DNA of 18,725 bases, from positions 1 through 18,725 of the forward strand of contig CAYQJO010000067.1 in NCBI GenBank assembly GCA_964417785.1. Direction: 5' to 3'. The translations under genes and the position numbers were made by a program. The notes under the pieces are model-generated. The model did no database searches. It was given only the letters and a program-made list of their open reading frames with translations, and was not told the DNA's origin. This document shows positions 5,056 through 18,653 of this stretch, piece by piece; the stretch's first letter is position 1, and each line of letters opens with the position of its first letter. This stretch comes from an uncultured Anaerolineaceae bacterium (GTDB lineage: Bacteria > Chloroflexota > Anaerolineae > Aggregatilineales > Phototrophicaceae).

Positions 5056-6069
5056 ATGTACCCGGTTTGGAGCCTGTTTTTGCCGACGATCCGTATACCA
5101 CAGCCTGGTGAACTGCCAACCGCGACTGATATGAGTCGGGTGGCTGTAGACGGTGACCGTATCACCGGACACATGACGGTTGCTCGCCATACCCTGCGTT
5201 ATGGCCGGGCCATGCTGCGGATTGCCGCTGTCAGCTATGATGGCGTTCATACCGGGGAGTTGATGCGTGATCTGCTCCCTACGATGATCGAACAGGGCGC
5301 ACATCTGGCGCTGGTCTATGATCGCCATGATGTGTTTGGTGATTTCGGCTTCAGTGCCGTCTGGCCGGAATATCGTTTTGAATTTGACGCCGCTGCCGCA
5401 GCGGCGCTTTCCCCATCACGCCTGCTCCGTCCCCCCCTCATGCAAGAGATTCCCTTACTGGCTGACCTGTACGACCGTCACTGGTCGGCGCGGATTTCGC
5501 TGCTGCGCACTGCCGAGACCTGGATGCAGCGTGCCGGTGATCCGGTCCGTGTGCTACCCGGTTCGGATTCGACGCTGGACGGTTACATTGTGGACCGGGG
5601 AGACGGCTGCGTTGAGGCCGTTGTGGATACAGCACCGGCGGCGCTGGCGGTGCTGGCTGAGGCGGGACACCATTACCAGAATGGGACGATACGCTGGTTG
5701 GTGCCGCCCGATGATGCCCTGGTGTTTTTCGCCCGGCGCTGGCTCGATGTGACCGTCAGCGCCCACTATCCGCTGCATGGCGGTTGGCTGGGACGTCTCG
5801 TCGACGCTGCCGCGTTGATAACGGAACTGATGCCGGAGATCAGCGCCCAGGCTGGTATCGACCCGGCACTGCTGACCATTCACTGCCGGCCTAACACGGT
5901 CTCTATCGGCTTCGGCGGTCACGACATCCGGCTGGATTACCGCGATTTTATGCAGGTGATGTTCGGGGCAGTCAATCCGGCGATGGTAGCGGACAGCGCC
6001 GGAGCCAGCCTGTTGCAGGCATTGTTCCCGCCGCGTGTTGCCGCCCTCGGCTGTTGGGATTGGTTTTAG
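5056..6069 (+). CDS. Hypothetical protein of 337 aa. A possible Eis-like acetyltransferase/SCP2-type fold is very tentative. The start codon is uncertain: ATG 5056 or ATG 5131.
   Basis: A long ORF with protein-like composition lies 23 nt after the permease gene. A TATAAT hexamer at 5040-5045 sits immediately upstream. There are no recognisable catalytic motifs. Confidence 0.55.
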   Translation: MYPVWSLFLPTIRIPQPGELPTATDMSRVAVDGDRITGHMTVARHTLRYGRAMLRIAAVSYDGVHTGELMRDLLPTMIEQGAHLALVYDRHDVFGDFGFSAVWPEYRFEFDAAAAAALSPSRLLRPPLMQEIPLLADLYDRHWSARISLLRTAETWMQRAGDPVRVLPGSDSTLDGYIVDRGDGCVEAVVDTAPAALAVLAEAGHHYQNGTIRWLVPPDDALVFFARRWLDVTVSAHYPLHGGWLGRLVDAAALITELMPEISAQAGIDPALLTIHCRPNTVSIGFGGHDIRLDYRDFMQVMFGAVNPAMVADSAGASLLQALFPPRVAALGCWDWF

Positions 6070-6081
6070 AAAGGCCATTGA

Positions 6082-7041
6082 TTGATCTATTTGATACGAA
6101 CATTGATCGGTGCATACGGTCTGGGTGTTCTGGGTGTTCTGGGTGGCCGGATTGTCATCGGGGAAACCTGGACCGTTATCGCGTTCTTCAATGCCATCCT
6201 CGATCTGGTGTTGTTTCCGTCACTGGTACTGCTGCCGCTGGCATTGCTGCTGCGCCAGCGCTTCGTCGCGACGTTGATGCTGCCACCGATTCTGGCCCTG
6301 GTTGGCTGGTATGCGCCGCTGCTGGTCGTCAGTGGGTCAGTACAATCAGCGGAAGATGCCGCCAGTCGTCTGTCGCTGGTGAGCTATAACGTCAACGGTC
6401 ATAACGACGACTTTGAAGCGATTGCCACCGTCCTGCGAGAGATGAACGCCGATGTGGTGGTGTTGCAGGAGTTGGGGCCGGCGCTGGCGGATTATCTGCT
6501 GGCCGCTATCGGCGATGACTATCCCTTCAACACGTTACAGGTCAATGTGCGCCATGCCATATACGGTGAAGGGGTTCTCAGCCGCCACGAGATTGTTGAA
6601 TCCAGCACATGGATGGGCGAACTGGGCGGCAACCAGCGGGTGTTGATCCAGGTAGGCGATGGACAGGTGGCGGTCTACAACATCCATGCAGCCTACCCGT
6701 TTGTGGTCGGTGGTTTCGACAGCCGCCGCCGTGATGTCTCCACAATCCTCGAACTGGCTGCTGCTGAAACGGTGCCGGTCATACTGGCTGGTGACTTCAA
6801 CCTGACGCCGCGCTCCGAGGACTATGATCGGCTGGTCAGCACGTATGTCGATGTCCACGCAGCGGTCGGCAGTGGTTTGGGTTATACCTTTACCCCGCGC
6901 TTCAGCCCGATCCCGCTGGCCCGCATTGATTATATCTTTGTCGATGAACGGCTGACACCGCTGCGAATTCGCGTCGGTTCTGATACTGGCGGGTCCGATC
7001 ATTCTCCGGTATGGGTGACTATAACCGGCGAATCTGAATAA
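6082..7041 (+). CDS. Endonuclease/exonuclease/phosphatase (EEP) family protein with an N-terminal polytopic membrane anchor.
   Basis: The EEP motifs are LVSYNVNGHND, VVVLQELGP, ILAGDFNLTPRSEDYDRL and GGSDHSPVWVTI. About 90 N-terminal residues form 2-3 hydrophobic helices. The start is an alternative codon (TTG at 6082, with AAAGG upstream). A tandem GTGTTCTGG repeat lies at 6122-6143. Confidence 0.75.
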   Translation: MIYLIRTLIGAYGLGVLGVLGGRIVIGETWTVIAFFNAILDLVLFPSLVLLPLALLLRQRFVATLMLPPILALVGWYAPLLVVSGSVQSAEDAASRLSLVSYNVNGHNDDFEAIATVLREMNADVVVLQELGPALADYLLAAIGDDYPFNTLQVNVRHAIYGEGVLSRHEIVESSTWMGELGGNQRVLIQVGDGQVAVYNIHAAYPFVVGGFDSRRRDVSTILELAAAETVPVILAGDFNLTPRSEDYDRLVSTYVDVHAAVGSGLGYTFTPRFSPIPLARIDYIFVDERLTPLRIRVGSDTGGSDHSPVWVTITGESE

Positions 7042-7885
7042 AGTCGACTTTTGCCACGTTTTCGGCGCAGGTGTTGCGGGTGAAGATCATGATCTCCTCC
7101 GATAGTGGCACACCGGCAGGGCTGTACAACTGGACGTTATACTGCCCTTCGGTTGGAGTCCCACCCAGATTAAACTCGTAGCCGCCCGGACCCATCGCCA
7201 GCGCCGCCCCACTAAAAACCCGCACGGTAAGCCTGTCGGGGTCCTGCACATCGATGATCCGTATCGAGTAGTTGTCCAGTGCTTCCCCGTCCAACCCGCG
7301 CACGGTCCCGGCGATGCTGCTCCAGTTGCAGCCGCGCTCGTTGGTGTTGGTCGTATAAGTTACACCCGCTTCACTGACGGCGAACGGGTACAGCGTTTCG
7401 GGATCAACCGGCGTAGGCATGACGCTGGCCGTCGGTGTTTCAGTAGGAATGGGTGTGATATCACCCGCTGCTTCGGCGGTCAGGGTGACGAAATAGGTGG
7501 CGACGGCAGCAGCATCGGACGTCATGGATACCTCGATAAAGGGTGTGGGGGGCGCGAACGGATTCAGCGGCGTATAGTGGTCTTCGTAGATCAGCAGGTA
7601 ATAACGCGCCAGCGCTACCGTCGCAAGCAAGAAAAATACGGCCACCACATCATGTCGCCAGTTGCCCTGCCGCCGTTTGCGTTTTGGCGGGCGCTGGCGC
7701 GGACGCTTTTCCGGTTCCAGCGCGGGCAGGGGCGGGAAGCGCTCCTCCGGCGGGGTGTACTTCACCGGTACGACCGCGTCCTCTACCACCTCCACATCGT
7801 CAGGCCGGGTCAGACTCTCCTGGATTTCGTCCCAGTTCGGCTCGTCCTGCTCCGGCGGATTATTGCCACGACCGAACAATCTCAT
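7019..7885 (-). CDS. Membrane protein, paralog B. It has a Pro/Arg/Lys-rich cytoplasmic N-terminal region of about 75 aa, one transmembrane helix, a PT-rich linker and a roughly 115-aa two-cysteine C-terminal domain.
   Basis: The basic stretch RPRQRPPKRKRRQGNWRHD is followed by the transmembrane helix VVAVFFLLATVALARYYLLIY. The linker is PIPTETPTASVMPTPVDPET. The C-terminal domain (GCNWSSIAGTVRGLDGE ... NTCAENVAKVDFIQIRRL) aligns with the C-terminus of the upstream gene at 7882..8649. There is a 4-bp start/stop overlap with that gene. Confidence 0.7.
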   Translation of the reverse strand: MRLFGRGNNPPEQDEPNWDEIQESLTRPDDVEVVEDAVVPVKYTPPEERFPPLPALEPEKRPRQRPPKRKRRQGNWRHDVVAVFFLLATVALARYYLLIYEDHYTPLNPFAPPTPFIEVSMTSDAAAVATYFVTLTAEAAGDITPIPTETPTASVMPTPVDPETLYPFAVSEAGVTYTTNTNERGCNWSSIAGTVRGLDGEALDNYSIRIIDVQDPDRLTVRVFSGAALAMGPGGYEFNLGGTPTEGQYNVQLYSPAGVPLSEEIMIFTRNTCAENVAKVDFIQIRRL

Positions 7886-8649
7886 GGGCGATCACGGGTC
7901 TGGATGAAGCGTAAGATGGCGACATTACCGTTGCAATCTCCGGGGAAGGCCACCTGGATTTCCGGTGACAGCGCTGTTCCCAGAGACGTTTCCAGACGGA
8001 CGAAATAGACCTGCTGGTTGATGGTATCCGCCACTTTGACCTCAAAGCCAGAGCGTGCGCCATACAACGAGTTTGATCCGGTTGGTTGTTTGGTGTCAAT
8101 GAAATCGTTGTAGACATGAATCTGGTACACCTGTTCCGTCTCCTGTCCGTCCACGCCCAGCACATTGCCCCCGATCCCCTGCCACGCGCAGCCAGCCGCG
8201 TTGGCGGTGTTGGGATTGAAGAGAATGTCATCACGCAGGGTGAACAGGAAGGGGTTGTCCGTCGGTGTAAATGTCAATGTCGGGCCAACGGGTGTGGCCG
8301 TGTCAGTGGCGGTCGGGCTGGCCGACGGGGTGAAGGTCGCTGAAGGTGTGGGCGTCGGTCCCGGTGTTTCGGTAATGGTCGGTGAGGGTGTGACCGACTG
8401 GGTTTCGGTGGGTACTTCGGTGAAGGTCGGTGTATTGGACGGCGTGAGAGTGGCTGTGGGGGTTTCGCTTGGTGTGACGGTGAAGGTCGGTGTCGCTGAT
8501 GGCAACACGATTCCCGTTGGCAGCGGCAGCGCCGCCACCTCATCTTGCTGCTCAGGGCCGAGCAGACGGACGACCACAAACACCAGCATCAAAGCTGACA
8601 GGGTGACAAAGACCAGACTGATGATGTCGTAAACGCGGGCAGTGTTCAT
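7882..8649 (-). CDS. Membrane protein, paralog A. It has a short N-terminus, one transmembrane helix, a long PT-rich linker and a two-cysteine C-terminal domain.
   Basis: The transmembrane helix is IISLVFVTLSALMLVFVVVRLL. The linker (TPTFTVTPSETPTATLTPSNTPTFTEVPTET...) is about 100 aa. The C-terminal domain (GCAWQGIGGNVLGVDGQE ... CNGNVAILRFIQTRDRP) is homologous to that of 7019..7885. Confidence 0.7.
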   Translation of the reverse strand: MNTARVYDIISLVFVTLSALMLVFVVVRLLGPEQQDEVAALPLPTGIVLPSATPTFTVTPSETPTATLTPSNTPTFTEVPTETQSVTPSPTITETPGPTPTPSATFTPSASPTATDTATPVGPTLTFTPTDNPFLFTLRDDILFNPNTANAAGCAWQGIGGNVLGVDGQETEQVYQIHVYNDFIDTKQPTGSNSLYGARSGFEVKVADTINQQVYFVRLETSLGTALSPEIQVAFPGDCNGNVAILRFIQTRDRP

Positions 8650-9970: not shown

Positions 9971-10831
9971 GTGGCAATCCCGAAACTGACTTTTGGACGT
10001 ACCGGACATGAGAGTACCCGTACATTGTTCGGCGCGGCGTCGTTGGGCAAGGTGACACAGGCCGAGGCCGATAAGACGCTGGACCTGCTGCTGGAATATG
10101 GTGTTAACCACATCGACACCGCCGCCAGCTACGGCGAATCCGAACTGCGCATCGGTCCCTGGATGGAAAAATATCGTGACCAGTTCTTCCTGGCGACCAA
10201 GACCGGCAAACGTACTTATGCCGAAGCCAAAGAGGAGTTCGAGCGCTCACTGGAACGGCTGCGTGTAGATTCAGTTGATCTGATCCAGCTTCACTATCTG
10301 GTGGGCGAGGAAGAATGGGAAGTGGCGATGGGTTCCGGCGGCGTGCTGGAATACCTGATCGAGGCCAAAGACCAGGGTCTGGTGAAGTATATCGGTGTGA
10401 CCGGCCACGACGTCGCCATTGTCCACATGCACCGTAAGAGCCTGGAACGCTACGACTTCGATTCGGTGCTGCTGCCCTACAATTACTTGATGATGCAAAA
10501 TCCGGAATACGCCGCTGGTTTCAACGAGATTCTGCGGATGGCGAAAGAGCGTAACGTCGCCGTTCAGACCATTAAGTCGATCAGCCGCCGTCGCTACACC
10601 GGCGACCGCACGCATTCGACCTGGTATGAGCCGTTGACCGACCAGGACGCTATTGACAATCTGGTCCACTGGGTGCTGGGTCAGGAAGGCATCTTCCTCA
10701 ACACCGTCGGTGACATCACCGTGCTGCCGAAGGTACTGGATGCGGCCAGCCGCTTCGAGGGCCAACGTCCGTCGGATGCGGAAATGGACGCGCTGGTGGC
10801 TCAGAACGCGATGGAGCCGCTGTTTACGTAA
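9971..10831 (+). CDS. Aldo/keto reductase family oxidoreductase.
   Basis: The N-terminus reads [21 protein letters not shown], and the sequence [12 protein letters not shown] contains the catalytic Tyr typical of the AKR fold. The start is a GTG with AAGGAG 9 nt upstream. Confidence 0.8.
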
Positions 10832-10849: not shown

Positions 10850-10877
10850 GAGAAGGCGACCGTCTGGTCGCCTTCTC
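10850..10877. terminator. Bidirectional intrinsic terminator between the convergent aldo/keto reductase and rhodopsin genes.
   Basis: A perfect 12-bp stem GAGAAGGCGACC-gtct-GGTCGCCTTCTC is flanked by TGGGTTCT on the plus-strand side. On the minus-strand side the flank is GCTTTGTTTGG. Confidence 0.6.
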
Positions 10878-10905: not shown

Positions 10906-11712
10906 TTAATTGCTGCTGACCGAAGCCGGCTGTGGATCACGGAAGCGGCGAGCATCATCGAGTTCTACCTCTGTCTCCGCCTCTGACTTGGCCCGCGCAA
11001 TGCTGTAGATCAATACGCCATAGCCACACTTGGCCGCCACATCAGCGATGCAGTAACCAACCTGGATGGCGATCAACGCGGTTGCACCTTCAACGCCGAG
11101 GATCGGCAGGAGATAGACCATCGGGTAAAAGCCCCAGGTGGCGAAGAGGAGCAGCCGAGCGTTGCGTACCAGCACTTTAGCCTCACCGGGCTGGCGATCA
11201 ATCGCTTCGCCAAGCTGGGAAAACAGCGCATACAGGATGTAAAGGAAGGGCAGGGTGCTGATGAAGCCCCACAGGGCGCGGGTACCGTTATCCGGTGCGA
11301 TCTCGCCCGGATAGCCCAGGATGACCATCGCAGCAGCAGCCAGACCCAGACGGAAAGTCATCTTGGCGGCCTGCGCACGCGGCAGCGTCAGCACGGCCAC
11401 CAGTTCAGCCACCAGCAGCGGCACGGTCAGCAGCCAATCGACGTAGCGATAGGCGTCGTTAAATGGTTCTCCGCTGGCAACGTAGGTGCCGTCCTGCAAG
11501 ACATAAGCACCAGCCCAACTCTCAAAAATGCGAAAATAGTGGTAACCGGCTACGGCCACAACCAGCGCCGACATCACCAGCGCCCCGCGATACTTCGGGG
11601 CAACATCCTGGCGCTTCAGCACGAAGAAGATGAATGACGCGAACATGGCCGCAAAGGTGAAAGAGAAAGCGTTGTAGACCAGACTGTACTGATCGGGGGT
11701 AAGTTCTACCAT
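10906..11712 (-). CDS. Microbial (type I) rhodopsin, a proteorhodopsin/xanthorhodopsin-family light-driven proton pump with a DTE motif.
   Basis: Helix C reads RYVDWLLTVPLLVAEL (Asp, Thr, Glu at the BR85/89/96 positions). Helix G reads IADVAAKCGYG, carrying the Schiff-base lysine. Helix F reads WGFYP. Helix E reads LWGFIST, with Gly at the bacteriorhodopsin Trp138 position, as in xanthorhodopsin/Gloeobacter rhodopsin. Helix B carries His in GYHYF. Seven hydrophobic helices are present. The start is ATG 11712 or GTG 11715. Confidence 0.9.
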   Translation of the reverse strand: MVELTPDQYSLVYNAFSFTFAAMFASFIFFVLKRQDVAPKYRGALVMSALVVAVAGYHYFRIFESWAGAYVLQDGTYVASGEPFNDAYRYVDWLLTVPLLVAELVAVLTLPRAQAAKMTFRLGLAAAAMVILGYPGEIAPDNGTRALWGFISTLPFLYILYALFSQLGEAIDRQPGEAKVLVRNARLLLFATWGFYPMVYLLPILGVEGATALIAIQVGYCIADVAAKCGYGVLIYSIARAKSEAETEVELDDARRFRDPQPASVSSN

Positions 11713-11715
11713 CAC

Positions 11716-11850
11716 TCCAATACCTTTAAACTAACACTTCGTTCGGAACGTTCAACTTGTGATGAACGTCACTATGTACAAAGTACAAATATTAGTTAAG
11801 TATTGCGTGTATACGGGCTAAATGTTTACGTAGCGCATAATACGCCATAG
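11716..11850 (-). promoter_or_regulatory. AT-rich island of about 135 bp (roughly 35% GC against about 61% GC background) immediately upstream of the rhodopsin gene. Putative promoter with a TTTGTAC direct repeat and a TGTACA palindrome.
   Basis: The base composition drops sharply here. Read on the minus strand, the sequence is TTAACTAATATTTGTACTTTGTACATAGTGACG. AAAGG and GGAG ribosome-binding elements sit next to the start codon. Confidence 0.35.
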
Positions 11851-11861
11851 CAAGGTTCACC

Positions 11862-11889
11862 CGCCGCCGTGAGCGAACTCACGGCGGCG
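11862..11889 (-). terminator. Stable hairpin about 100 nt downstream of the flotillin stop codon (CGCCGCCGTGAG-cgaa-CTCACGGCGGCG). Candidate terminator or 3' stabiliser without a clear U-tract.
   Basis: A perfect 12-bp GC-rich stem with a 4-nt loop. No T-run follows on either strand, so a terminator role is uncertain. Confidence 0.35.
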
Positions 11890-11990: not shown

Positions 11991-13460
11991 TTATGCCGGA
12001 GTCTCGTCGTCCTCTTCCGGCAGGATGGGCGGTCGTTCAACTGGCGCTGTACCGTTTTCCATCTTGATCGCGTTGAACATCTCCGATATTTTCACCAGCG
12101 TCTCCTGGAAGTCGTCACCAGTCAGTGCCTCAACTTTGGTGGTGAACATATCCGCCACCTGCGGGATGTTCAGCAGCATATCCAGGAAGGTATTGCCGGT
12201 AACGCCGTGACCGTTGCCCCCGCCAAAATCGACGATGCGAACGTTGCCACCAAGACCGGCCAGGGCCTGGGCGATGGCTTCCGCCTTGGCGATGTCGGCT
12301 CTGGTGAGCTGCTCGACCACGTACTGGCGCAGGTTGATCTCACCCTCGGCAGCACTGGCGGCGGCGATTTCGCGCCGGCCTTCGGCTTCCGCCAGGAGTT
12401 TGGCGCGTTCACCTTCGGCTTCCGCCAGGAATTGTGCTCGCATACCCTCAGCCTCGGCTTTGTTGCCTTCGGCTTCTGCCTGCTTCATGGCTTTCAGCGC
12501 GTCTGCGTCGGCTTGCGCTTTCTCGCGGATGGCGCGGGCCTGAGCTTCAGCTTCGATCTCAATACGGCGGCGTTCGGCTTCGGCGCGGATTTCAGTCGCC
12601 TGGCGCGACGCCCGGGCCGGGACCAGCACCTCGGCTTCCTGCTGCTGCTCGACGGCCAGTGCCTTGCGCTTCTGCACTTCCTGACCGCTGTCGGCTTCGG
12701 CCAATCCCACCTGGCGGTTGACCTCGACCTCACGCAGCTTCAGCGCTTCGCGTTGCGCCAGAATCTCACGCTGCGCGTCCAGTTCGGCCTGTTCCGCTGC
12801 TTGCAGCGCTTCGGCGGCCTTGACTCGCGCCTGACGGTCGGCTTCCGCTTCGGCGATGGCGGCGTCACGCTTAACGGCAGCGATTTGTGGGGCGGCCATC
12901 GCTTGTAGATAGCCTTGCTCGTCGGTGATCTCCTCGATACCCATCGAGATGACCTTGACACCCATCGCGGCCACATCGTCCGACGCCAGTTCCTGCACTT
13001 TCTGGACGAAGCTGTCGCGGTCGCGGTGGATGGCTTCAACCGACATCTGCCCGACGATGGCGCGGAAGTTGGCGCTCAGGGTTTCCTCAATAACCCGGCG
13101 GACTTCATCTGAGGACTTGTCGAGAAAAGCACGGGTAGCGGTGCGCAGCGCCGATTCTTCGCTGTCGATCTGGACCTGGGCCACCCAGTCTAACTGGATC
13201 GGTACGCCGCTCTCAGTATAGACCTCATCCTTCTCGGTCTTGATCGTCATGATGGTGATGTCGAGCAGCTTGTAGCTCTCAATCACCGGCCATACAAAGA
13301 CACCACCGTTCGTCACCAGCCGCGATTGTCCGCGACCGAAAACAACCATGACCTTGCTCGGCGGAACTTTATGATAATAGCGTGTAATAAAAGCGATGAG
13401 TGCCGTGAGCAGCACCACCGCCCCGACAACAACGATGATCCATTCAAAACCACCTTCCAT
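11991..13460 (-). CDS. floT: Flotillin (SPFH/band-7 domain, FloT/YuaG-like) with a long Ala/Glu-rich coiled-coil region.
   Basis: It has an N-terminal transmembrane helix and the SPFH domain (VFVWPVIESYKLLDITIMTI...). The EA-rich repeats (AEAEADRQARVKAAEALQAAEQAELDAQ...) are characteristic of flotillins. An AGGAG ribosome-binding site is present. It starts 10 nt after the stop codon of the nfeD-like gene. Confidence 0.88.
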   Translation of the reverse strand: MEGGFEWIIVVVGAVVLLTALIAFITRYYHKVPPSKVMVVFGRGQSRLVTNGGVFVWPVIESYKLLDITIMTIKTEKDEVYTESGVPIQLDWVAQVQIDSEESALRTATRAFLDKSSDEVRRVIEETLSANFRAIVGQMSVEAIHRDRDSFVQKVQELASDDVAAMGVKVISMGIEEITDEQGYLQAMAAPQIAAVKRDAAIAEAEADRQARVKAAEALQAAEQAELDAQREILAQREALKLREVEVNRQVGLAEADSGQEVQKRKALAVEQQQEAEVLVPARASRQATEIRAEAERRRIEIEAEAQARAIREKAQADADALKAMKQAEAEGNKAEAEGMRAQFLAEAEGERAKLLAEAEGRREIAAASAAEGEINLRQYVVEQLTRADIAKAEAIAQALAGLGGNVRIVDFGGGNGHGVTGNTFLDMLLNIPQVADMFTTKVEALTGDDFQETLVKISEMFNAIKMENGTAPVERPPILPEEDDETPA

Positions 13461-13470
13461 GTCTTGCTCC

Positions 13471-14004
13471 TTAATTGTTTCGTTTCTTCTTCACAATGAG
13501 CCGGCCTTCACGCACATCAACAACCTCTACGATGTCGCCCTTTTCCAGCAAGACTTCATCGCTGCTGGCTTTGACCGGATACTTCATCACCGACCCGGCC
13601 TCCACCATTGCTTCGCCGGTTTTGCCTGGTGGGATGTTGACTGTGATGCGAGCGAAAGCCCCGATCAAGGATTCGCTGGTTACAACATCGGTGGATTGCT
13701 GCCGGATAACAAAGTTCAACACCGCAGCCGTCGAGCGTCCGAAAATGAGGCCGAAAACGGCTCCAGCGGCCAGGCTGAAGGCCAGGTTCCAGCCGGAGAG
13801 TTCCCCAACCAGACCCATCGAGCCAAAACCAGTCATAAACGCCGCGATGACCATGCAGCCCAGGTTACGAGCTTCCGATGTATCCGCGCCGACATCGACG
13901 TCTACATCCACATCGGTGTCAATGTCGGCAAAATCTCCCAGGAAAATGGAGATCAGCAGAAATGCCACACCACCCGCCATGATTGCCGCGAATATCCACG
14001 TCAT
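13471..14004 (-). CDS. NfeD-family membrane protein (YuaF-like), partner of flotillin.
   Basis: It has N-terminal transmembrane helices plus a C-terminal OB-fold-like tail (GDIVEVVDVREGRLIVKKK). An AGGAG ribosome-binding site is present. The nfeD-floT gene order is conserved in many bacteria. Confidence 0.78.
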   Translation of the reverse strand: MTWIFAAIMAGGVAFLLISIFLGDFADIDTDVDVDVDVGADTSEARNLGCMVIAAFMTGFGSMGLVGELSGWNLAFSLAAGAVFGLIFGRSTAAVLNFVIRQQSTDVVTSESLIGAFARITVNIPPGKTGEAMVEAGSVMKYPVKASSDEVLLEKGDIVEVVDVREGRLIVKKKRNN

Positions 14005-14136: not shown

Positions 14137-14853
14137 GTGAGCGATTTCAAGCCCGACATCTGGCGTCTTCAGGCGCAGTTCAACACGCAGGGTCTCGTAG
14201 AGGCGTTGGCGAACGATGACGCCGGTATTCGTCGGCGTGCCGCTGCCGCATTACGTGCGCTGGGGGCCTATCATGCCATCCCTGAGCTTGAGGCCGCCCT
14301 GGAAAGCGAATCCGACCCGGAGACCCGTGCGAATATGTTGGCGGCGCTGGCGACGCTGCACCAGGAGCGGGAACGCAAAGAGCAGGATGAAGCGACGCTC
14401 GAAGTACCCGGTGCGCGGTTGACCGAGGTGGACCGCTTGCTTCAGGCCCTTCAGGTGACGACCGATCCCGATACCATCATCCAACTGGCACGCAAATTAG
14501 GTGATCTGGGAGCCAAGCAGGCCGTCGATACCCTGGTGGTGCTGTTCAACAATGCCCAGTTGCCCATCCGTGTGCGATTGGCGGTGGCGGAAGTTCTGCT
14601 TAAACTGGAAAGTGCGCCGATTGAGGTGGCGCTGCTGGGGGCGCTTTCCAGCCCACAGTGGCGGGTGCGCCGCAACAGTGCGGCTATTCTGGGCCAACTT
14701 CGGGCGGTCTGGGCGGTTGAACCGCTGGCGGTGGCGCTGCGCGATGAGCATGAAATGGTGCGCCGGACTGCCTATGCGGCGTTGAGGAATATCGGTACGC
14801 CGGAAGCACTGCGTGCGATACGCCGGAAGGAAGAGGACCAGGAGGGGTTATGA
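14137..14853 (+). CDS. HEAT-repeat (PBS-lyase-like) protein, cytoplasmic.
   Basis: There are repeated helical units of about 30 aa with the pattern xxVRxxAAxALGxIG (IRRRAAAALRALG, VRRNSAAILGQL, VRRTAYAALRNIG). The start is GTG. The stop codon overlaps the downstream ATG (ATGA). Confidence 0.72.
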   Translation: MSDFKPDIWRLQAQFNTQGLVEALANDDAGIRRRAAAALRALGAYHAIPELEAALESESDPETRANMLAALATLHQERERKEQDEATLEVPGARLTEVDRLLQALQVTTDPDTIIQLARKLGDLGAKQAVDTLVVLFNNAQLPIRVRLAVAEVLLKLESAPIEVALLGALSSPQWRVRRNSAAILGQLRAVWAVEPLAVALRDEHEMVRRTAYAALRNIGTPEALRAIRRKEEDQEGL

Positions 14854-16520
14854 AGAAGGCGCTGGCGCTGGGCGTTGTCGTCTGGCTGATGATTGGCGGT
14901 CTTGTGGCGCAGACCGGTGTGACCGCCGTTGTGGTGAACGAATACGCCAACATTCGTATCGTCCCGGCCATTGGAGCCGAGGTGATCGCGACCGTTCCTG
15001 CCGGGTATCTTTTTGACGTGATTACCGCACGAACCGGCGACAATATCTGGCTGCGCATCGACTTCAACGGTGAGGAGGGTTGGGTACACACCTCCACGCT
15101 GAGTGTGTTGACCGGCGATGCTGCCGTGCTGCCGGTGGCTGACCCACGCTCGATACCTTTTGGCGGTGTCGAAGTGCCGCGCTCCGGCCTGACCGAGGCT
15201 ACAAGCGACATCCTGGCGCGAGCAACCGACTGGCTGCGTGTGCGAGCCGGTCCCAGTACGGGCTATCCGGTCCTGGCGAATGCCCCCATAGACACCTTAA
15301 TGCCCCTGCTTGGTCGGACGGAGAGCAGCAGTTGGATTCAGGTCAATTATGAGGGTACACTCGGTTGGGTATCCAGCCGCTATTTGCAACTGCCGCTTGG
15401 TTTTGGCTTCGCTGCGCTGCCAGTCGGCGGAATTATCGCGTCCGCGCCCATTGAGAGCGCCGCTTCCGGTGAGAATTATCTGGAGGTGCTGAAGTTGATG
15501 CAATCGCGCATTGATCTGGCACAACCATCGCTGGATCAGATTCGTGCATCCTGGACCGATGCCGCGCTGACCGGGCGAGCGGCCTGTAATCAGGCCTATC
15601 CCGTGCGTCCGAGTGATTACAACATCCCCAATCCGATTCTGGCGGCGTTCTACGACCAACTGAACCCGCTGGTTGGCCTGTTCAACGATGCCATGTTCAA
15701 CGTGCGCTACGCCATTGACCTGTTTATCGACGCCTGTGAGCAGCCGGGACCGGTCAACACGGTCGGGCAGGCGCTGGTCGTCGGTGCGCTGGATACGGTG
15801 GCGCTGGCGGATGCGCAGTTTGCGGAACTGCGGCGCAAACTCAATGAGTTGATCCCGCCGCCGGTGGAGCCAGGTCTGGATCAATGTATCTTCACCTTCG
15901 CCAATCAGGTCGATATTCTGCCAGTTATCCCACTCGGCCAGATCATCACGGATGGCTTTACACCGCGCAATGTCGCCTCCGGCTATTGTGTCGATCTGGT
16001 TGAGGGGCAGTCGGTCGTGGTCGAGATTTTGCAGTTTCCTGGCAGCAACCTCGAAATGCTGTTTTCGATCAGTCCGATAGACAATCCGACCGGCTTCCTG
16101 GCGACCAACCGCAGCGATGCCACTGTGCCGCGCCAGATTGCGGGACCGGTCCCGATTCCGGCCACCGGGCGCTACATCATCATTCTGAGCCATACCGCAC
16201 TGGAACCGCCGCAGGGTGAGTTTGGTCTGCTGGTTTCAGATGCGCTGACGGCGGTACCGGGTGGCACGCTCCAGGTAGATGCGGTGACTGGCGACCTGAT
16301 CCAGGTCATGCCGACTGCCAATCCGCTGCTGCCGACGGCCATTCCCGCTGGCGGCGGTGTGTGTCCCAGCCCCAATTTGAACTGTTTCCAGCTACAATCG
16401 ATTGTGGGTGCGAATTGCGCTCTGGCACAGGCCTGCCTGACACCGGCGAATGCAGCGATTCTGGACCCGGACGGAGATGGCGTACCCTGCGAACAAATCC
16501 TCTGCCCGGAGACGTCATAG
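14850..16520 (+). CDS. Secreted multidomain protein: signal peptide, two bacterial SH3-like domains, a central Cys-containing region, a PPC-like beta-sandwich (tentative) and a C-terminal Excalibur calcium-binding motif.
   Basis: The signal peptide is MKKALALGVVVWLMIGGLVAQT. The SH3b-like segments are NIRIVPAIGAEVIATVPAGYLFDV...WLRI and WLRVRAGPSTGYPVLANAPIDTLMPLLG...WIQV. The sequence DPDGDGVPCE at the C-terminus matches the Excalibur DxDxDGxxCE signature. A GGAGGGG ribosome-binding site is present. Confidence 0.78.
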   Translation: MKKALALGVVVWLMIGGLVAQTGVTAVVVNEYANIRIVPAIGAEVIATVPAGYLFDVITARTGDNIWLRIDFNGEEGWVHTSTLSVLTGDAAVLPVADPRSIPFGGVEVPRSGLTEATSDILARATDWLRVRAGPSTGYPVLANAPIDTLMPLLGRTESSSWIQVNYEGTLGWVSSRYLQLPLGFGFAALPVGGIIASAPIESAASGENYLEVLKLMQSRIDLAQPSLDQIRASWTDAALTGRAACNQAYPVRPSDYNIPNPILAAFYDQLNPLVGLFNDAMFNVRYAIDLFIDACEQPGPVNTVGQALVVGALDTVALADAQFAELRRKLNELIPPPVEPGLDQCIFTFANQVDILPVIPLGQIITDGFTPRNVASGYCVDLVEGQSVVVEILQFPGSNLEMLFSISPIDNPTGFLATNRSDATVPRQIAGPVPIPATGRYIIILSHTALEPPQGEFGLLVSDALTAVPGGTLQVDAVTGDLIQVMPTANPLLPTAIPAGGGVCPSPNLNCFQLQSIVGANCALAQACLTPANAAILDPDGDGVPCEQILCPETS

Positions 16521-16581: not shown

Positions 16582-18531
16582 TCAACCGTTGGGATTGGTT
16601 TCCGTATACAGGGTGCCGACCTCATCTGCTGTGAGGGCCTGCGTAAAAATCTGCAGGTCATAGTAGGTACCCATGAAGTGGCGGTTACTGTTGTTGCCGC
16701 GTTCGTGTCCAATGCCGAACCAGTAGGATGAATCCCAGTGATCGAAGTTGATGTTGCCGTAATCGGACCTGGACTGCGCCGCTGCACCGTTAATGTAAAG
16801 TGTGCCGGTGCCGTAGGCATAGGTGAAGACGACGTGTGTCGCCTGAGTGGAGACCCCACTCTGTTCGACCATACGCTCCATACCGTTGTCGTCGTTGGCA
16901 TCGCGACGGAACCGGACCTGCCATTTGCCGCCGTTCTGCCCCAGGGTGAAATTGCGTTTGTTGCCGTCCCAGGACAGGGTGACGATGCGGCCCGGCCCGC
17001 TCTGCGAGGTATTAGCCGGTTTGATCCAGGCCGAGATGGTGATGGCCTCGCTGGATTGGATGGCCCCGGTCAGTGTCGCGCCACTGGTACCGAAGCTGAC
17101 ATTCTGGCTGGTGATCACCAGGGCGTTGCCGGTCCAGGAGTAGCCGCTGTTGTCAGAACCGGAGGTCAGCGATAAGTTCATGCCACTCATGCGATCTGTC
17201 ACGGTGGAGCCGCTGTCCTCGAAGGCGTAGGCAACATAGGGTGCGACCGTGAAGCTATCGCAGCCATCAGGTGTGCCATCTTTGTCCACATCAATGTTGT
17301 CGTCATGGCCGGGACACTGATCGCTGGCGTCAAGTACGCCGTCGTTGTCACTATCCTGGGGTTCTGCGCCACCACCGCTGTCGTCGCTGCCGGTAGCTTC
17401 TATGATCTCGATACCGGCGATGGCCGCTTTGCGACTGTTTGGATGGCCGTCAAGCACCAGGTTCAGGTGGCCGTCGCTGACGCTCACCTCACGTTCCAGG
17501 ATCACGCTTTCCCAGGTTTGACCGGTCGTGTTAAGAGCAGAGAAACCCGTTTTCCAGGTAGTGCCTTCGACTGCCACATCCATAATCCGCTCGTAACTGC
17601 CAGTGCTGGAGTCAACGAAGTGTAACCGCACCAGATAGGTGCCGCTGGGCAGAGTAGGTGACTGCCAGGTCACCTTGCTGGGTGAATCGTTGCCCAGCAG
17701 GAAGCCGCTGCAAACCGGGTACGTCCCGCCATCCTCCCAGGAGCTTTGCCAGTCGCTGCCGTTCCAGATCAGAATGTTACGTTTGCTACAGGTGCCGTCG
17801 GATTTATTCTGGATTTCACTGGCGTCGGTTGTCAGGTCCTTGCCCACGATCCAAGTGTGGCCGTCCATTGAAACCGGCTGATACTTGCTGTAATCGGCGG
17901 TTTCATTGTTGTAGCCGGGTTCGGGCGAGCCGAAGTTGATATGGTACTCAGTGTCACAGGCATCGCCGCGATTGTCTCCATCGTAATCCGACTGACCCGC
18001 ATTTATATCGTCAGGGCAGTTGTCACTATCGTTAGGCACGCTGTCTCCGTCGGTGTCGTTGGGGTCAGTGACACTGCCCGTGCCGCCGCCACCGCCAGTG
18101 ATGGTGCCACCGTCACCGGTGCTACCGCCACCATCGCCCGTACTGCCGCCGTCATCGCCTGTGCTACCGCCGTCATCACCCGTACTGCCGCCGTCATCAC
18201 CCGTACTGCCGCCGTCATCACCCGTGCTGCCGCCGTCATCACCCGTGCTGCCACCGCCATCGCCTGTGCTGCCACCACCATCGCCTGTGCTGCCGCCACC
18301 GCTACCATACTGTTCGGGGGAATATCCACCAGCACCACCGGCATCAACCACATAGGTGGACCCATTAGGGTTGGGGTCGCCCATCTGATAAAGGATATTG
18401 CTGAAGACGTTGCCGATGGTTGGGCCTACGATCATCAGTATCACGATGACGACCAATGCCACCAGCGAGAGGATCAGCGCATACTCTGTGGTTCCTTGTC
18501 CTTTCGTAGGATTGGGGTTGCTTTTTGGCAT
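16582..18531 (-). CDS. Large surface protein with an Flp/Fap-pilin-like N-terminus (class III signal, G/XXXXEY). It is fused to GGSTGD(G/D) heptad repeats, two thrombospondin type-3 calcium-binding repeats, a malectin-like carbohydrate-binding domain and a C-terminal LamG/ConA-like jelly-roll domain.
   Basis: The N-terminus reads MPKSNPNPTKG/QGTTEYALILSLVALVVIVILMIVG. The TSP3 repeats are DPNDTDGDSVPNDSDNCPDDINAGQSDYDGDNRGDACD and DSDNDGVLDASDQCPGHDDNIDVDKDGTPDGCD. The malectin-like region runs from HINFGSPEPGY to KAAIAGIEIIE. The LamG-like region runs ITISAWIKP...FTLGQ...THVVFTY...LYINGAAA...YYDLQIF. The probable start is ATG 18531 (GAGG 8 nt upstream). The ORF track extends to a TTG at 18549. 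Confidence 0.8.
   Translation of the reverse strand: MPKSNPNPTKGQGTTEYALILSLVALVVIVILMIVGPTIGNVFSNILYQMGDPNPNGSTYVVDAGGAGGYSPEQYGSGGGSTGDGGGSTGDGGGSTGDDGGSTGDDGGSTGDDGGSTGDDGGSTGDDGGSTGDGGGSTGDGGTITGGGGGTGSVTDPNDTDGDSVPNDSDNCPDDINAGQSDYDGDNRGDACDTEYHINFGSPEPGYNNETADYSKYQPVSMDGHTWIVGKDLTTDASEIQNKSDGTCSKRNILIWNGSDWQSSWEDGGTYPVCSGFLLGNDSPSKVTWQSPTLPSGTYLVRLHFVDSSTGSYERIMDVAVEGTTWKTGFSALNTTGQTWESVILEREVSVSDGHLNLVLDGHPNSRKAAIAGIEIIEATGSDDSGGGAEPQDSDNDGVLDASDQCPGHDDNIDVDKDGTPDGCDSFTVAPYVAYAFEDSGSTVTDRMSGMNLSLTSGSDNSGYSWTGNALVITSQNVSFGTSGATLTGAIQSSEAITISAWIKPANTSQSGPGRIVTLSWDGNKRNFTLGQNGGKWQVRFRRDANDDNGMERMVEQSGVSTQATHVVFTYAYGTGTLYINGAAAQSRSDYGNINFDHWDSSYWFGIGHERGNNSNRHFMGTYYDLQIFTQALTADEVGTLYTETNPNG
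18097..18303 (-). repeat. About ten tandem copies of a 21-bp unit (consensus CGTRCTGCCGCCGTCATCRCC on the plus strand) encoding the GGSTGD(G/D) heptads of the adhesin.
   Basis: Units can be read directly at 18118, 18139, 18160, 18181, 18202, 18223, 18244 and 18265. Several are identical. Confidence 0.85.
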
Positions 18532-18653
18532 AAATAACCTCTGCTGCAATAATGACTGATAAAGTTAAAATGAAAACTTGTTGCCATTAGTGTAACAGCT
18601 TTATGCATTGAGGCTGCTGGAATTTACGGAAATTTGGTATTTTTTCAGATTTT

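What the first reader, a model, noticed from the sequence alone, without database searches (positions are those of the whole stretch)
10906..11712. Xanthorhodopsin-type proton-pumping rhodopsin with an antenna-permissive Gly, and no retinal-synthesis gene nearby
The DTE motif (RYVDWLLTVPLLVAE), the Schiff-base Lys (DVAAK) and the helix-B His place it in the PR/XR outward H+ pump clade. The LWGF sequence in helix E puts Gly where bacteriorhodopsin has Trp138, the substitution that opens the keto-carotenoid antenna site in xanthorhodopsin and Gloeobacter rhodopsin. No blh or crt gene lies within the window, so retinal supply must be encoded elsewhere. The immediate neighbours are unrelated: an aldo/keto reductase and nfeD-floT. 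A rhodopsin in this lineage implies photoheterotrophic energy supplementation.
Basis: partly seen in the sequence, partly recalled or inferred. Interest (0 to 1): 0.65.

Follow-up and report, generated by a model that had tools for sequence, protein, structure and literature searches.

The report
Xanthorhodopsin-type proton pump in Chloroflexota
This gene encodes an ordinary, already-deposited member of the xanthorhodopsin family of light-driven proton pumps, from an Anaerolineae-type bacterium of a high-altitude salt-flat microbial mat. Both the open carotenoid-antenna site and the missing nearby retinal-synthesis gene are typical of its clade.

Summary
Window 10906-11712 (minus strand) encodes a 268-aa microbial rhodopsin (Pfam E 1.7e-38). 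Its best solved relative is Salinibacter xanthorhodopsin (E 8e-94, 61.5% identity; model-to-3DDL TM 0.94).

Alignment places H58, D92/T96/E103 (the DTE motif), D224 and K228 at the expected sites. G149 sits exactly at BR Trp138, XR Gly156, GR Gly178 and Kin4B8 Gly153. No blh or crt gene lies in the window, nor in a further 10 kb of a near-identical 53-kb contig.

None of this is unusual. The exact protein is already in NCBI, JGI and ENA, where JGI names it "bacteriorhodopsin". The Gly is invariant in the 120 closest homologues. Only 2 of 42 Chloroflexota loci have blh within 10 kb, against 32 of 38 loci from other phyla. Xanthorhodopsins in Chloroflexi, their antenna residues and their missing retinal genes are all described in the literature.

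The most likely function is a green-absorbing outward H+ pump that supplements energy. Antenna use is plausible but unproven, because the Gly is necessary but not sufficient. The source of retinal remains undetermined.

Verdict: new member of a known kind, low interest.

The parts
10906..11712 (-). Coding sequence (268 aa plus stop) of a xanthorhodopsin-family microbial rhodopsin. Key codons: H58 11539-11541, D92 11437-11439, T96 11425-11427, E103 11404-11406, G149 11266-11268, D224 11041-11043, K228 11029-11031.
   Evidence: The codons for K228 (ctt on the + strand), G149 (gcc) and D92 (atc) were read directly.
10850..10877 (-). Intrinsic-terminator-like hairpin: 12-bp perfect stem, 4-nt loop, followed by GCTTTGTTTG. 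It lies 29 nt after the rhodopsin stop codon, in the gap shared with the convergent aldo/keto reductase gene.
   Evidence: I1. Function as a terminator is inferred.
11713..11861 (-). Upstream untranslated and promoter region, relatively A+T-rich. It contains the palindrome TGTACAAAGTACA at 11775-11787. No sigma-70 consensus match was found.
   Evidence: The palindrome is absent upstream of homologues, so no regulatory role is claimed.
11862..11889 (.). Perfect 12-bp G+C-rich hairpin (CGCCGCCGTGAG/CTCACGGCGGCG, 4-nt loop) between the end of floT and the rhodopsin upstream region. It has no T-run. It probably ends or insulates the nfeD-floT transcript, which would make the rhodopsin a separate transcription unit.
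   Evidence: I2. The role is inferred.

Best explanation
The gene encodes a type-1 (microbial) rhodopsin of the xanthorhodopsin family (subgroup I in the sense of Vollmers et al. 2013). The host is a Chloroflexota bacterium (class Anaerolineae; nearest named relatives are Aggregatilineales and Phototrophicaceae) from Salar de Atacama microbial mats.

Proposed mechanism, by homology to Salinibacter XR and Gloeobacter GR:
- All-trans retinal binds K228 as a protonated Schiff base.
- After photoisomerisation the proton passes to the D92 counter-ion, which is paired with H58.
- The Schiff base is reprotonated from E103, giving net outward H+ transport.
- The resulting proton-motive force supplements a heterotrophic metabolism.
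- Leu100 at the tuning position predicts green absorption.
- G149 leaves the fenestration beside the retinal ring open, so a carotenoid ring could dock along helix F and pass on blue light energy.

The gene stands alone between a hairpin upstream and a terminator downstream, and it is not linked to chromophore-synthesis genes.

Shown here: family, fold, residue identities, gene context and lineage. Inferred: retinal binding, pumping direction, colour, antenna use and physiological role.
For: Family and fold:
- Pfam Bac_rhodopsin E 1.7e-38.
- PDB ranking is XR 3DDL 8e-94, GR 1e-85, psXR 6e-85, Kin4B8 9e-84, TR 2e-73, actinorhodopsin 9HFK 4e-63. Na+/Cl- pumps score about 1e-29, PR about 1e-21 and BR about 1e-12.
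- The AlphaFold2 model has pLDDT 93.4 with seven helices plus the N-terminal/B-C-loop strands. Its best structural match is 3DDL (TM 0.94, rmsd 1.4 A), followed by psXR, GR, Kin4B8 and TR.

Functional residues:
- All proton-pump and retinal-pocket residues are present and invariant in 120 homologues: R89, D92, W93, T96, L100, E103, W193, Y196, P197, D224, K228 and H58.
- Antenna-site residues G149, F150, T153, N184, L187, A191, G194 and Y200 are identical to XR G156, F157, T160, N191, L194, A198, G201 and Y207. I204/L205 at the floor of the site are hydrophobic, as in the keto-carotenoid binders XR and GR (PMC12308411).

Lineage:
- Named relatives of the rhodopsin and of an unrelated ABC permease on the same contig are all Chloroflexota.
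- The NJ tree puts the query inside an Anaerolineae-dominated clade (bootstrap 65).
- G+C content around the gene matches the rest of the contig.

Source: Tebenquiche/La Brava mats.
Against: - No experiment supports any step; retinal binding and transport are inferred by homology only.
- Four carotenoid-contact positions differ from XR: F190 for L197, M198 for I205 (unique among 120 homologues), L201 for M208, and I204 for M211. The three-residue XR segment A147-L148-F149 is absent, as it is in GR, Kin4B8 and TR.
- Gly at this position did not suffice for salinixanthin binding in Octadecabacter XR (PMC3646047), and psXR did not bind canthaxanthin (PMC12779958).
- No retinal or carotenoid biosynthesis gene was found in about 29 kb of linked sequence, so chromophore supply is unproven.
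- No promoter consensus was found.
Confidence: 0.85

Rival explanations
1. It is a working outward proton pump that uses retinal only. The open Gly site is an inherited family trait, and no carotenoid is bound in vivo.
For: The Gly is invariant across the whole clade (120 of 120) and therefore says nothing specific about this protein. Published cases show Gly is not sufficient: Octadecabacter XR (PMC3646047) and psXR with canthaxanthin (PMC12779958). Four contact residues differ from XR, including the unique M198. No carotenoid gene was seen in about 29 kb.
Against: Eight of the listed XR carotenoid-contact residues are identical, including the helix-F slot residues (T160, L194, A198, G201) whose loss was blamed for non-binding in subgroup II (PMC3646047). 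All solved close relatives with the Gly (XR, GR, Kin4B8, psXR) bind some carotenoid. Microbial mats are rich in carotenoids.
Confidence: 0.4
2. The host cannot make retinal by the known Blh/Brp or carotenoid-cleavage-dioxygenase routes. The opsin then depends on retinal (and perhaps carotenoid) scavenged from mat neighbours, or on an unknown pathway.
For: No blh or crt gene was found in the window or in 10 kb beyond it. Only 2 of 42 Chloroflexota loci carry blh near the gene, against 32 of 38 in other phyla. Thiel et al. found no carotenoid oxygenase in XR-bearing Chloroflexi genomes of hot-spring mats and proposed exactly these alternatives (PMC5459899). Aurantimicrobium makes retinal without any known gene (PMC7734400).
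Against: Only about 29 kb of a multi-megabase genome was inspected. Unlinked retinal genes are normal for subgroup-I XRs, including Salinibacter (PMC3646047). At least one Anaerolineales genome (L032) has blh directly downstream of its XR, so the lineage can carry it.
Confidence: 0.2
3. It is not a proton pump but a sensory rhodopsin or a pump for another ion.
For: None is specific. Function has not been measured for this clade of Chloroflexota proteins.
Against: The protein has the full DTE motif with a carboxylate donor and the His-Asp pair. It lacks the NDQ and NTQ motifs of Na+ and Cl- pumps, and those pumps are far more distant in sequence. There is no transducer or signalling gene beside it and no fused output domain.
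Confidence: 0.03
4. The contig is mis-assigned or the gene was recently transferred, so the rhodopsin says nothing about Chloroflexota physiology.
For: Rhodopsins are often transferred between lineages. Some bins in the comparison set are clearly in conflict: L053/L054 are near-identical under two phylum labels, and L020 is a 'Pleurocapsa' MAG carrying an Anaerolineae-type gene.
Against: An unrelated permease on the same contig has only Chloroflexota-named relatives, at identity levels (61-76%) similar to those of the rhodopsin. G+C is uniform across the gene. The same gene order was assembled independently in JGI, ENA and NCBI data.
Confidence: 0.05

Closest known systems
Salinibacter ruber xanthorhodopsin (SrXR, PDB 3DDL)
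   Same: 61.5% identity over 244 aligned residues and the best hit by both sequence and fold. Identical features are the DTE motif, the His62-Asp96 pair, Gly156, Phe157, Thr160, Asn191, Leu194, Ala198, Gly201 and Tyr207. The gene is also not clustered with retinal-synthesis genes (PMC3646047).
   Different: The query lacks XR residues 147-149. It has F190/M198/L201/I204 where XR has L197/I205/M208/M211, and it lacks the longer F-G loop of XR (alignment). The host is a Chloroflexota mat bacterium, not a halophilic Bacteroidota relative. No crtO ketolase lies beside the gene.
Gloeobacter rhodopsin (GR, 6NWD) and Antarctic Pseudanabaena psXR (9WFA)
   Same: About 55% identity. The loop lengths match, since both also lack XR residues 147-149. 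Both have Gly at the fenestration and Leu at XR position 208, and in both the gene stands alone without blh (PMC12779958).
   Different: These are cyanobacterial hosts with chlorophyll photosynthesis. GR binds keto-carotenoids, whereas psXR binds hydroxylated ones and not canthaxanthin, so specificity cannot be read across to this protein.
Kin4B8 xanthorhodopsin (7YTB/8I2Z) and related freshwater XRs
   Same: 57% identity, the same fold and the same Gly (Kin4B8 G153).
   Different: Kin4B8 has polar Ser208/Tyr209 at the floor of the site, which bind 3-hydroxy carotenoids. The query has Ile204/Leu205, hydrophobic as in XR and GR (PMC12308411). Most non-Chloroflexota relatives in my locus set (Sphingomonadales, Bdellovibrionota, Myxococcota) have blh directly downstream.
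Xanthorhodopsin-like genes already reported in Chloroflexi
   Same: Same family and phylum. Reported cases include Roseiflexus, Ca. Roseilinea, Ca. Thermofonsia CP2_42A and freshwater CL500-11/SL56/TK10. The same observations have been published: green tuning, conserved carotenoid-binding residues, and missing carotenoid oxygenase (PMC5459899, PMC5826079, bioRxiv 10.1101/366732).
   Different: This sequence is from a hypersaline high-altitude mat population. Its nearest database relatives are 76-82% identical. I found no paper characterising a protein of this Anaerolineae clade biochemically, but my search was limited.
Actinorhodopsin (RlActR, 9HFK) and proteorhodopsin
   Same: DTE-type outward proton pumps of the same superclade.
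   Different: Clearly more distant: 46% identity and E 4e-63 for actinorhodopsin, and E about 1e-21 for proteorhodopsin.

Membership tests
Microbial (type-1) rhodopsin | Seven-transmembrane bacteriorhodopsin fold | tested here: met
   Pfam PF01036 E 1.7e-38 covering profile positions 8-221 of 224. AF2 model has pLDDT 93.4 and seven long helices. TM 0.94 to 3DDL.
Microbial (type-1) rhodopsin | Schiff-base lysine in helix G, with the counter-ion Asp four residues before it | tested here: met
   K228 aligns with BR K216 and D224 with BR D212. Both are invariant in 120 homologues.
Microbial (type-1) rhodopsin | Covalent binding of retinal and a visible absorption band | not testable with these tools
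   Requires expression and spectroscopy. The pocket residues W93, W193, Y196 and P197 are conserved.
PR/XR-type outward proton pumps (DTE motif) | Asp acceptor, Thr, and Glu donor at BR positions 85/89/96 | tested here: met
   D92, T96 and E103.
PR/XR-type outward proton pumps (DTE motif) | Helix-B histidine paired with the acceptor Asp (XR H62, PR H75) | tested here: met
   H58 aligns with XR H62 within the identical GYHYFRI motif.
PR/XR-type outward proton pumps (DTE motif) | Light-driven outward H+ transport | not testable with these tools
   Requires a pH-electrode assay on expressing cells.
Xanthorhodopsin family, subgroup I (antenna-capable XRs) | Closer to SrXR/GR than to actinorhodopsin, PR or NQ pumps | tested here: met
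   phmmer bit scores are 317 (XR), 290 (GR), 217 (ActR), about 105 (Na+/Cl- pumps) and about 78 (PR). The Foldseek order is the same. In the NJ tree the query lies within the ingroup that contains XR, GR, psXR, Kin4B8 and TR. That tree used BR as the only outgroup and held no ActR, PR or NQ sequences, so it does not test this placement, and its deep nodes are weakly supported.
Xanthorhodopsin family, subgroup I (antenna-capable XRs) | Glycine at SrXR position 156 (BR Trp138), opening the fenestration | tested here: met
   G149 is in register with XR G156, GR G178 and Kin4B8 G153 in both the HMMER and MAFFT alignments.
Xanthorhodopsin family, subgroup I (antenna-capable XRs) | Conserved carotenoid slot on helices E/F (XR F157, T160, N191, L194, L197, A198, G201, I205, Y207, M208, M211) | tested here: inconclusive
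   Seven of these eleven positions are identical. Four are conservatively changed: F190, M198, L201 and I204. GR also differs at several of these positions and still binds. I could not inspect the side-chain geometry of the model.
Xanthorhodopsin family, subgroup I (antenna-capable XRs) | Actual carotenoid binding and energy transfer to retinal | not testable with these tools
   Requires reconstitution with carotenoids, followed by CD and excitation spectra.
Rhodopsin-blh (retinal operon) gene cluster | blh/brp, with or without crtEIBY, adjacent to the opsin gene | tested here: not met
   No PF15461, PF05834, PF00494 or CrtI-like hit in the window or in 10 kb beyond its right end.

The most novel reading that the evidence does not exclude
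This Anaerolineae lineage, like most of its XR-bearing Chloroflexota relatives, may carry no known retinal-forming enzyme anywhere in its genome. It would then load its opsin, and possibly the antenna site, with chromophores released by cyanobacterial or other mat neighbours, or make retinal by an undescribed route. The near-absence of blh next to Chloroflexota XR genes (2 of 42 loci against 32 of 38 elsewhere) would then reflect a real physiological dependence rather than mere gene scattering.
Probability: 0.15. Interest if true: 0.55.

Novelty: new member of a known kind. Interest (0 to 1): 0.2.

Why it matters
The finding adds one more uncharacterised xanthorhodopsin to a large, well-described family. 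It indicates that a heterotrophic Anaerolineae population in strongly irradiated Andean salt-flat mats can probably harvest light.

The one point of wider interest is not specific to this gene. Chloroflexota XR genes are almost never linked to blh, whereas those of other phyla usually are. That bears on the open question of where such organisms get their retinal, but the question has already been raised in the literature and cannot be settled from this contig.

Tried and rejected
1. Conserved operator upstream. The palindrome TGTACAAAGTACA (11775-11787) looked like a possible light-regulator site, but it is absent upstream of all 78 homologous genes examined. No claim is made.
2. Riboswitch or other known RNA in the window. 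Rfam gave no match at gathering thresholds.
3. Conserved gene neighbourhood. All-against-all clustering of ORFs from 80 loci found no neighbour shared between the window and other Chloroflexota loci. The aldo/keto reductases near some homologues are only about 29% identical and not in the same position, and nfeD-floT adjacency is confined to this population.
4. Looking for blh from the same metagenome. A single-protein scan of JGI metagenomes with the Anaerolineales Blh found nothing. This is uninformative, because that mode only finds close relatives.
5. Unusual residues. Only V2, D36, A128 and M198 are rare relative to the homologues, and none lies at a known catalytic or tuning site.
6. Horizontal-transfer signature. 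G+C is uniform across the gene.
7. The sigma-70 promoter scan found nothing. That consensus may not apply to this phylum.

Full report
**What is in the sequence.** The minus strand of window 10906-11715 holds an open reading frame. From the ATG at 11712 it encodes 268 residues, the same gene call as in public records. It matches Pfam Bac_rhodopsin over almost the whole profile (E 1.7e-38). The flanking genes are an aldo/keto reductase (9971-10831, +, convergent), flotillin/Band_7 (11991-13460, -) and NfeD (13471-14004, -). A perfect 12-bp hairpin followed by a T-rich tail lies 29 nt after the stop codon (10850-10877). A second perfect 12-bp G+C hairpin (11862-11889) separates the end of floT from the A+T-richer upstream region. 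The rhodopsin therefore looks like a transcription unit of its own; this is an inference.

**Residue assignments.** Against all PDB sequences, the best match is Salinibacter ruber xanthorhodopsin 3DDL (E 8.4e-94). It is followed by Gloeobacter rhodopsin 6NWD, psXR 9WFA, Kin4B8 7YTB, Thermus rhodopsin 5AZD and actinorhodopsin 9HFK. Na+ and Cl- pumps score about 1e-29, proteorhodopsins about 1e-21 and bacteriorhodopsin about 1e-12. A MAFFT alignment of the query with BR, XR, GR, Kin4B8, TR, psXR and the 120 best database homologues gives these correspondences:
- R89 = BR R82
- D92 = D85
- W93 = W86
- T96 = T89
- L100 = L93 (the green/blue tuning site)
- E103 = D96 / XR E107
- W193 = W182
- Y196 = Y185
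- P197 = P186
- D224 = D212
- K228 = K216
- H58 = XR H62
- G149 = BR W138 = XR G156 = GR G178 = Kin4B8 G153

The HMMER pairwise alignments show the same register around RALWGF/RGLWGF. Identity to XR is 61.5%.

**Fold.** An AlphaFold2 model built on 57 homologues has mean pLDDT 93.4. It shows seven long helices plus short strands at the N-terminus and in the B-C loop. Foldseek against the PDB ranks 3DDL first (TM 0.94 normalised to target, rmsd 1.4 A, 59% identity), then psXR, GR, Kin4B8 and TR. Actinorhodopsin and the Na+/Cl- pumps rank lower.

**Antenna site.** The literature agrees that Gly at XR position 156 opens a fenestration beside the retinal ring and that replacing it with a bulky residue abolishes carotenoid binding (PMC3646047; bioRxiv 10.1101/2022.08.24.505090; PMC12308411; PMC12779958). 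The same papers stress that the Gly is not sufficient. Octadecabacter XRs have it but do not bind salinixanthin, because the helix-F slot (T160, L194, L197, A198, G201, I205) is not conserved (PMC3646047). psXR has it but does not bind canthaxanthin (PMC12779958). In the query, F150, T153, N184, L187, A191, G194 and Y200 equal XR F157, T160, N191, L194, A198, G201 and Y207. F190, M198, L201 and I204 replace L197, I205, M208 and M211. M198 is unique among the 120 homologues. The two residues at the floor of the site (I204, L205) are hydrophobic, as in the keto-carotenoid binders XR and GR. They are not polar as in Kin4B8, where Ser208 and Tyr209 bind the 3-hydroxyl group (PMC12308411). The site is thus better conserved than in non-binding subgroup-II proteins, and a keto-carotenoid is the more likely ligand, but this remains inference. 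The Gly is invariant in all 120 homologues and present in about 55% of environmental XRs (bioRxiv 10.1101/2022.08.24.505090). It is a clade trait, not a peculiarity of this gene.

**Origin.** The identical protein is already in NCBI, JGI and ENA, where JGI labels it 'bacteriorhodopsin'. The window is a complete 18,725-bp contig. The same gene order was assembled in JGI metagenome 3300012009, in ENA assemblies of PRJEB25599, and on a 52,961-bp contig of MAG GCA_034437435.1. PRJEB25599 holds the Tebenquiche and La Brava mats of the Salar de Atacama (bioRxiv 10.1101/870428). The rhodopsin's closest relatives are 76-82% identical, and those that carry a name are Chloroflexota: Anaerolineae, Aggregatilineales or Phototrophicaceae. 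The named relatives of an unrelated ABC permease on the contig are also all Chloroflexota, at similar identities. G+C is even across the gene. In an NJ tree the query falls in an Anaerolineae-dominated clade (bootstrap 65) inside the radiation that contains XR, GR, psXR, Kin4B8 and TR; deeper nodes are weak. The gene is therefore resident in this lineage rather than a recent arrival.

**Retinal supply.** A Pfam scan of all sizeable ORFs in the window found the following, and no Blh/BCD, lycopene cyclase, phytoene synthase or CrtI-type protein:
- an HtrA-like protease
- a peptide ABC transporter
- an EEP-family (endonuclease/exonuclease/phosphatase) protein
- two Pro/Thr-rich proteins of unknown function
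- a SurA/PpiC protein
- the aldo/keto reductase
- flotillin and NfeD
- a HEAT-repeat protein
- an SH3 protein
- a LamG protein

A tblastn with Blh, CrtI-like and CrtY proteins taken from related loci gave only noise. The longer contig adds 10 kb to the right of the window, carrying an epimerase, a glycosyltransferase, proline dehydrogenase, a metallo-beta-lactamase-fold protein, a MacB-type transporter and two unknowns. Again nothing is relevant.

To judge what this absence means, I fetched 80 loci from species-representative genomes, clustered their ORFs, identified the recurrent neighbours by Pfam and re-searched all loci with tblastn. Blh lies beside the rhodopsin, usually directly downstream, in 32 of 38 loci labelled Sphingomonadales, Caulobacteraceae, Bdellovibrionota, Myxococcota and similar. 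It does so in only 2 of 42 Chloroflexota-labelled loci. One of those two (L053) is near-identical to a contig binned as Polyangiaceae (L054). L032 (Anaerolineales UBA6055) is the only clear case. Restricting the count to loci with at least 5 kb on both sides gives 16 of 19 against 1 of 23.

So the missing blh is the norm for this clade. It agrees with published statements that subgroup-I XR genes are not clustered with retinal genes (PMC3646047) and that XR-bearing mat Chloroflexi lack a recognisable carotenoid oxygenase (PMC5459899). Whether this genome encodes the pathway elsewhere could not be tested. The MAG is not in the searchable genome collection, and a scan of JGI metagenomes for close relatives of the Anaerolineales Blh found nothing. 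Uptake from neighbours and an unknown pathway are published alternatives (PMC5459899, PMC7734400).

**Mechanism and rivals.** The best-supported reading is a green-absorbing, outward proton-pumping xanthorhodopsin that supplements the energy budget of a heterotrophic mat bacterium (confidence about 0.85 for the pump). Carotenoid antenna use is about an even bet. A sensory or other-ion function is very unlikely, given the complete DTE/His set, the large distance to NDQ/NTQ pumps and the absence of signalling partners. Mis-binning or recent transfer is unlikely, given the permease result and the independent assemblies.

**Novelty.** XR-type rhodopsins in Chloroflexi have been described several times, together with their green tuning, conserved antenna residues and missing retinal genes (PMC5459899, PMC5826079, bioRxiv 10.1101/366732). 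The exact sequence is public. It is a new, uncharacterised member of a known kind, and a specialist would not be surprised by it. The only element with wider reach is the lineage-wide lack of blh linkage, which is not specific to this finding. Interest: 0.2.

Noticed in passing
Loci L003-L082 (rhodopsin at about 10001-10800 in most): There is a sharp lineage split in gene linkage. A Blh/BCD gene sits next to the XR-type rhodopsin in 32 of 38 non-Chloroflexota loci but in only 2 of 42 Chloroflexota-labelled loci.
   Followed up: partly
L076:9195-9860 and 16 other proteobacterial loci: A PAS(LOV-like)-LuxR/GerE regulator lies just upstream of the rhodopsin in 17 Sphingomonadales, Caulobacteraceae and other Pseudomonadota loci. 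This suggests light-regulated expression there. Nothing comparable lies near the window gene.
   Followed up: partly
L064:10855-12867 and L067:10855-12861: In two Bdellovibrionota loci a single ORF of about 670 aa combines a lycopene cyclase domain (PF05834) with a Blh/BCD domain (PF15461). It lies directly beside the rhodopsin. It is either a fused cyclase-cleavage enzyme or two genes merged by my crude ORF calling.
   Followed up: no
L053 and L054: Near-identical rhodopsin-crtY-blh contigs are binned as Chloroflexota in one MAG and Polyangiaceae in another, so at least one bin is contaminated.
   Followed up: no
L020:10001-10738: A MAG titled Pleurocapsa minor (cyanobacterium) carries an Anaerolineae-type XR gene, 73% identical to the query, that clusters inside the Anaerolineae clade. 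This is either bin contamination or a transfer.
   Followed up: no
window 16582-18549 (-), repeats at 18081-18300: A 649-655-aa protein has an N-terminus that looks like a Flp-type pilin leader (GQGTTEYALILSLVAL, by eye; no Pfam hit). This is followed by about ten 21-bp tandem repeats encoding GDGGGST, then TSP3, malectin-like and LamG domains. It is an unusual pilin-leader/adhesin combination.
   Followed up: partly
window 7019-7885 (-) and 7882-8649 (-): Two adjacent, overlapping genes encode paralogous proteins (31% identity over the C-terminal 150 residues, E 3e-14). Each has a membrane anchor, a Pro/Thr-rich linker and a C-terminal domain bracketed by two Cys. Neither has a Pfam family.
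   Followed up: partly
window 11775-11787: The perfect palindrome TGTAC-AAA-GTACA lies about 60 nt upstream of the rhodopsin start. It is absent upstream of all homologues checked, so its significance is unknown.
   Followed up: yes
window 5056-6069 (+): A 329-337-aa ORF between the peptide ABC permease and the EEP-family gene has no Pfam match. It is called as a gene in all public assemblies of this region.
   Followed up: no
window 14137-14853 and 14850-16520 (+): A HEAT-repeat (PBS-lyase-like) protein gene overlaps by 4 nt the start of a gene for a secreted protein with two SH3 domains. This suggests translational coupling, and the pair is conserved in all assemblies of this population.
   Followed up: no
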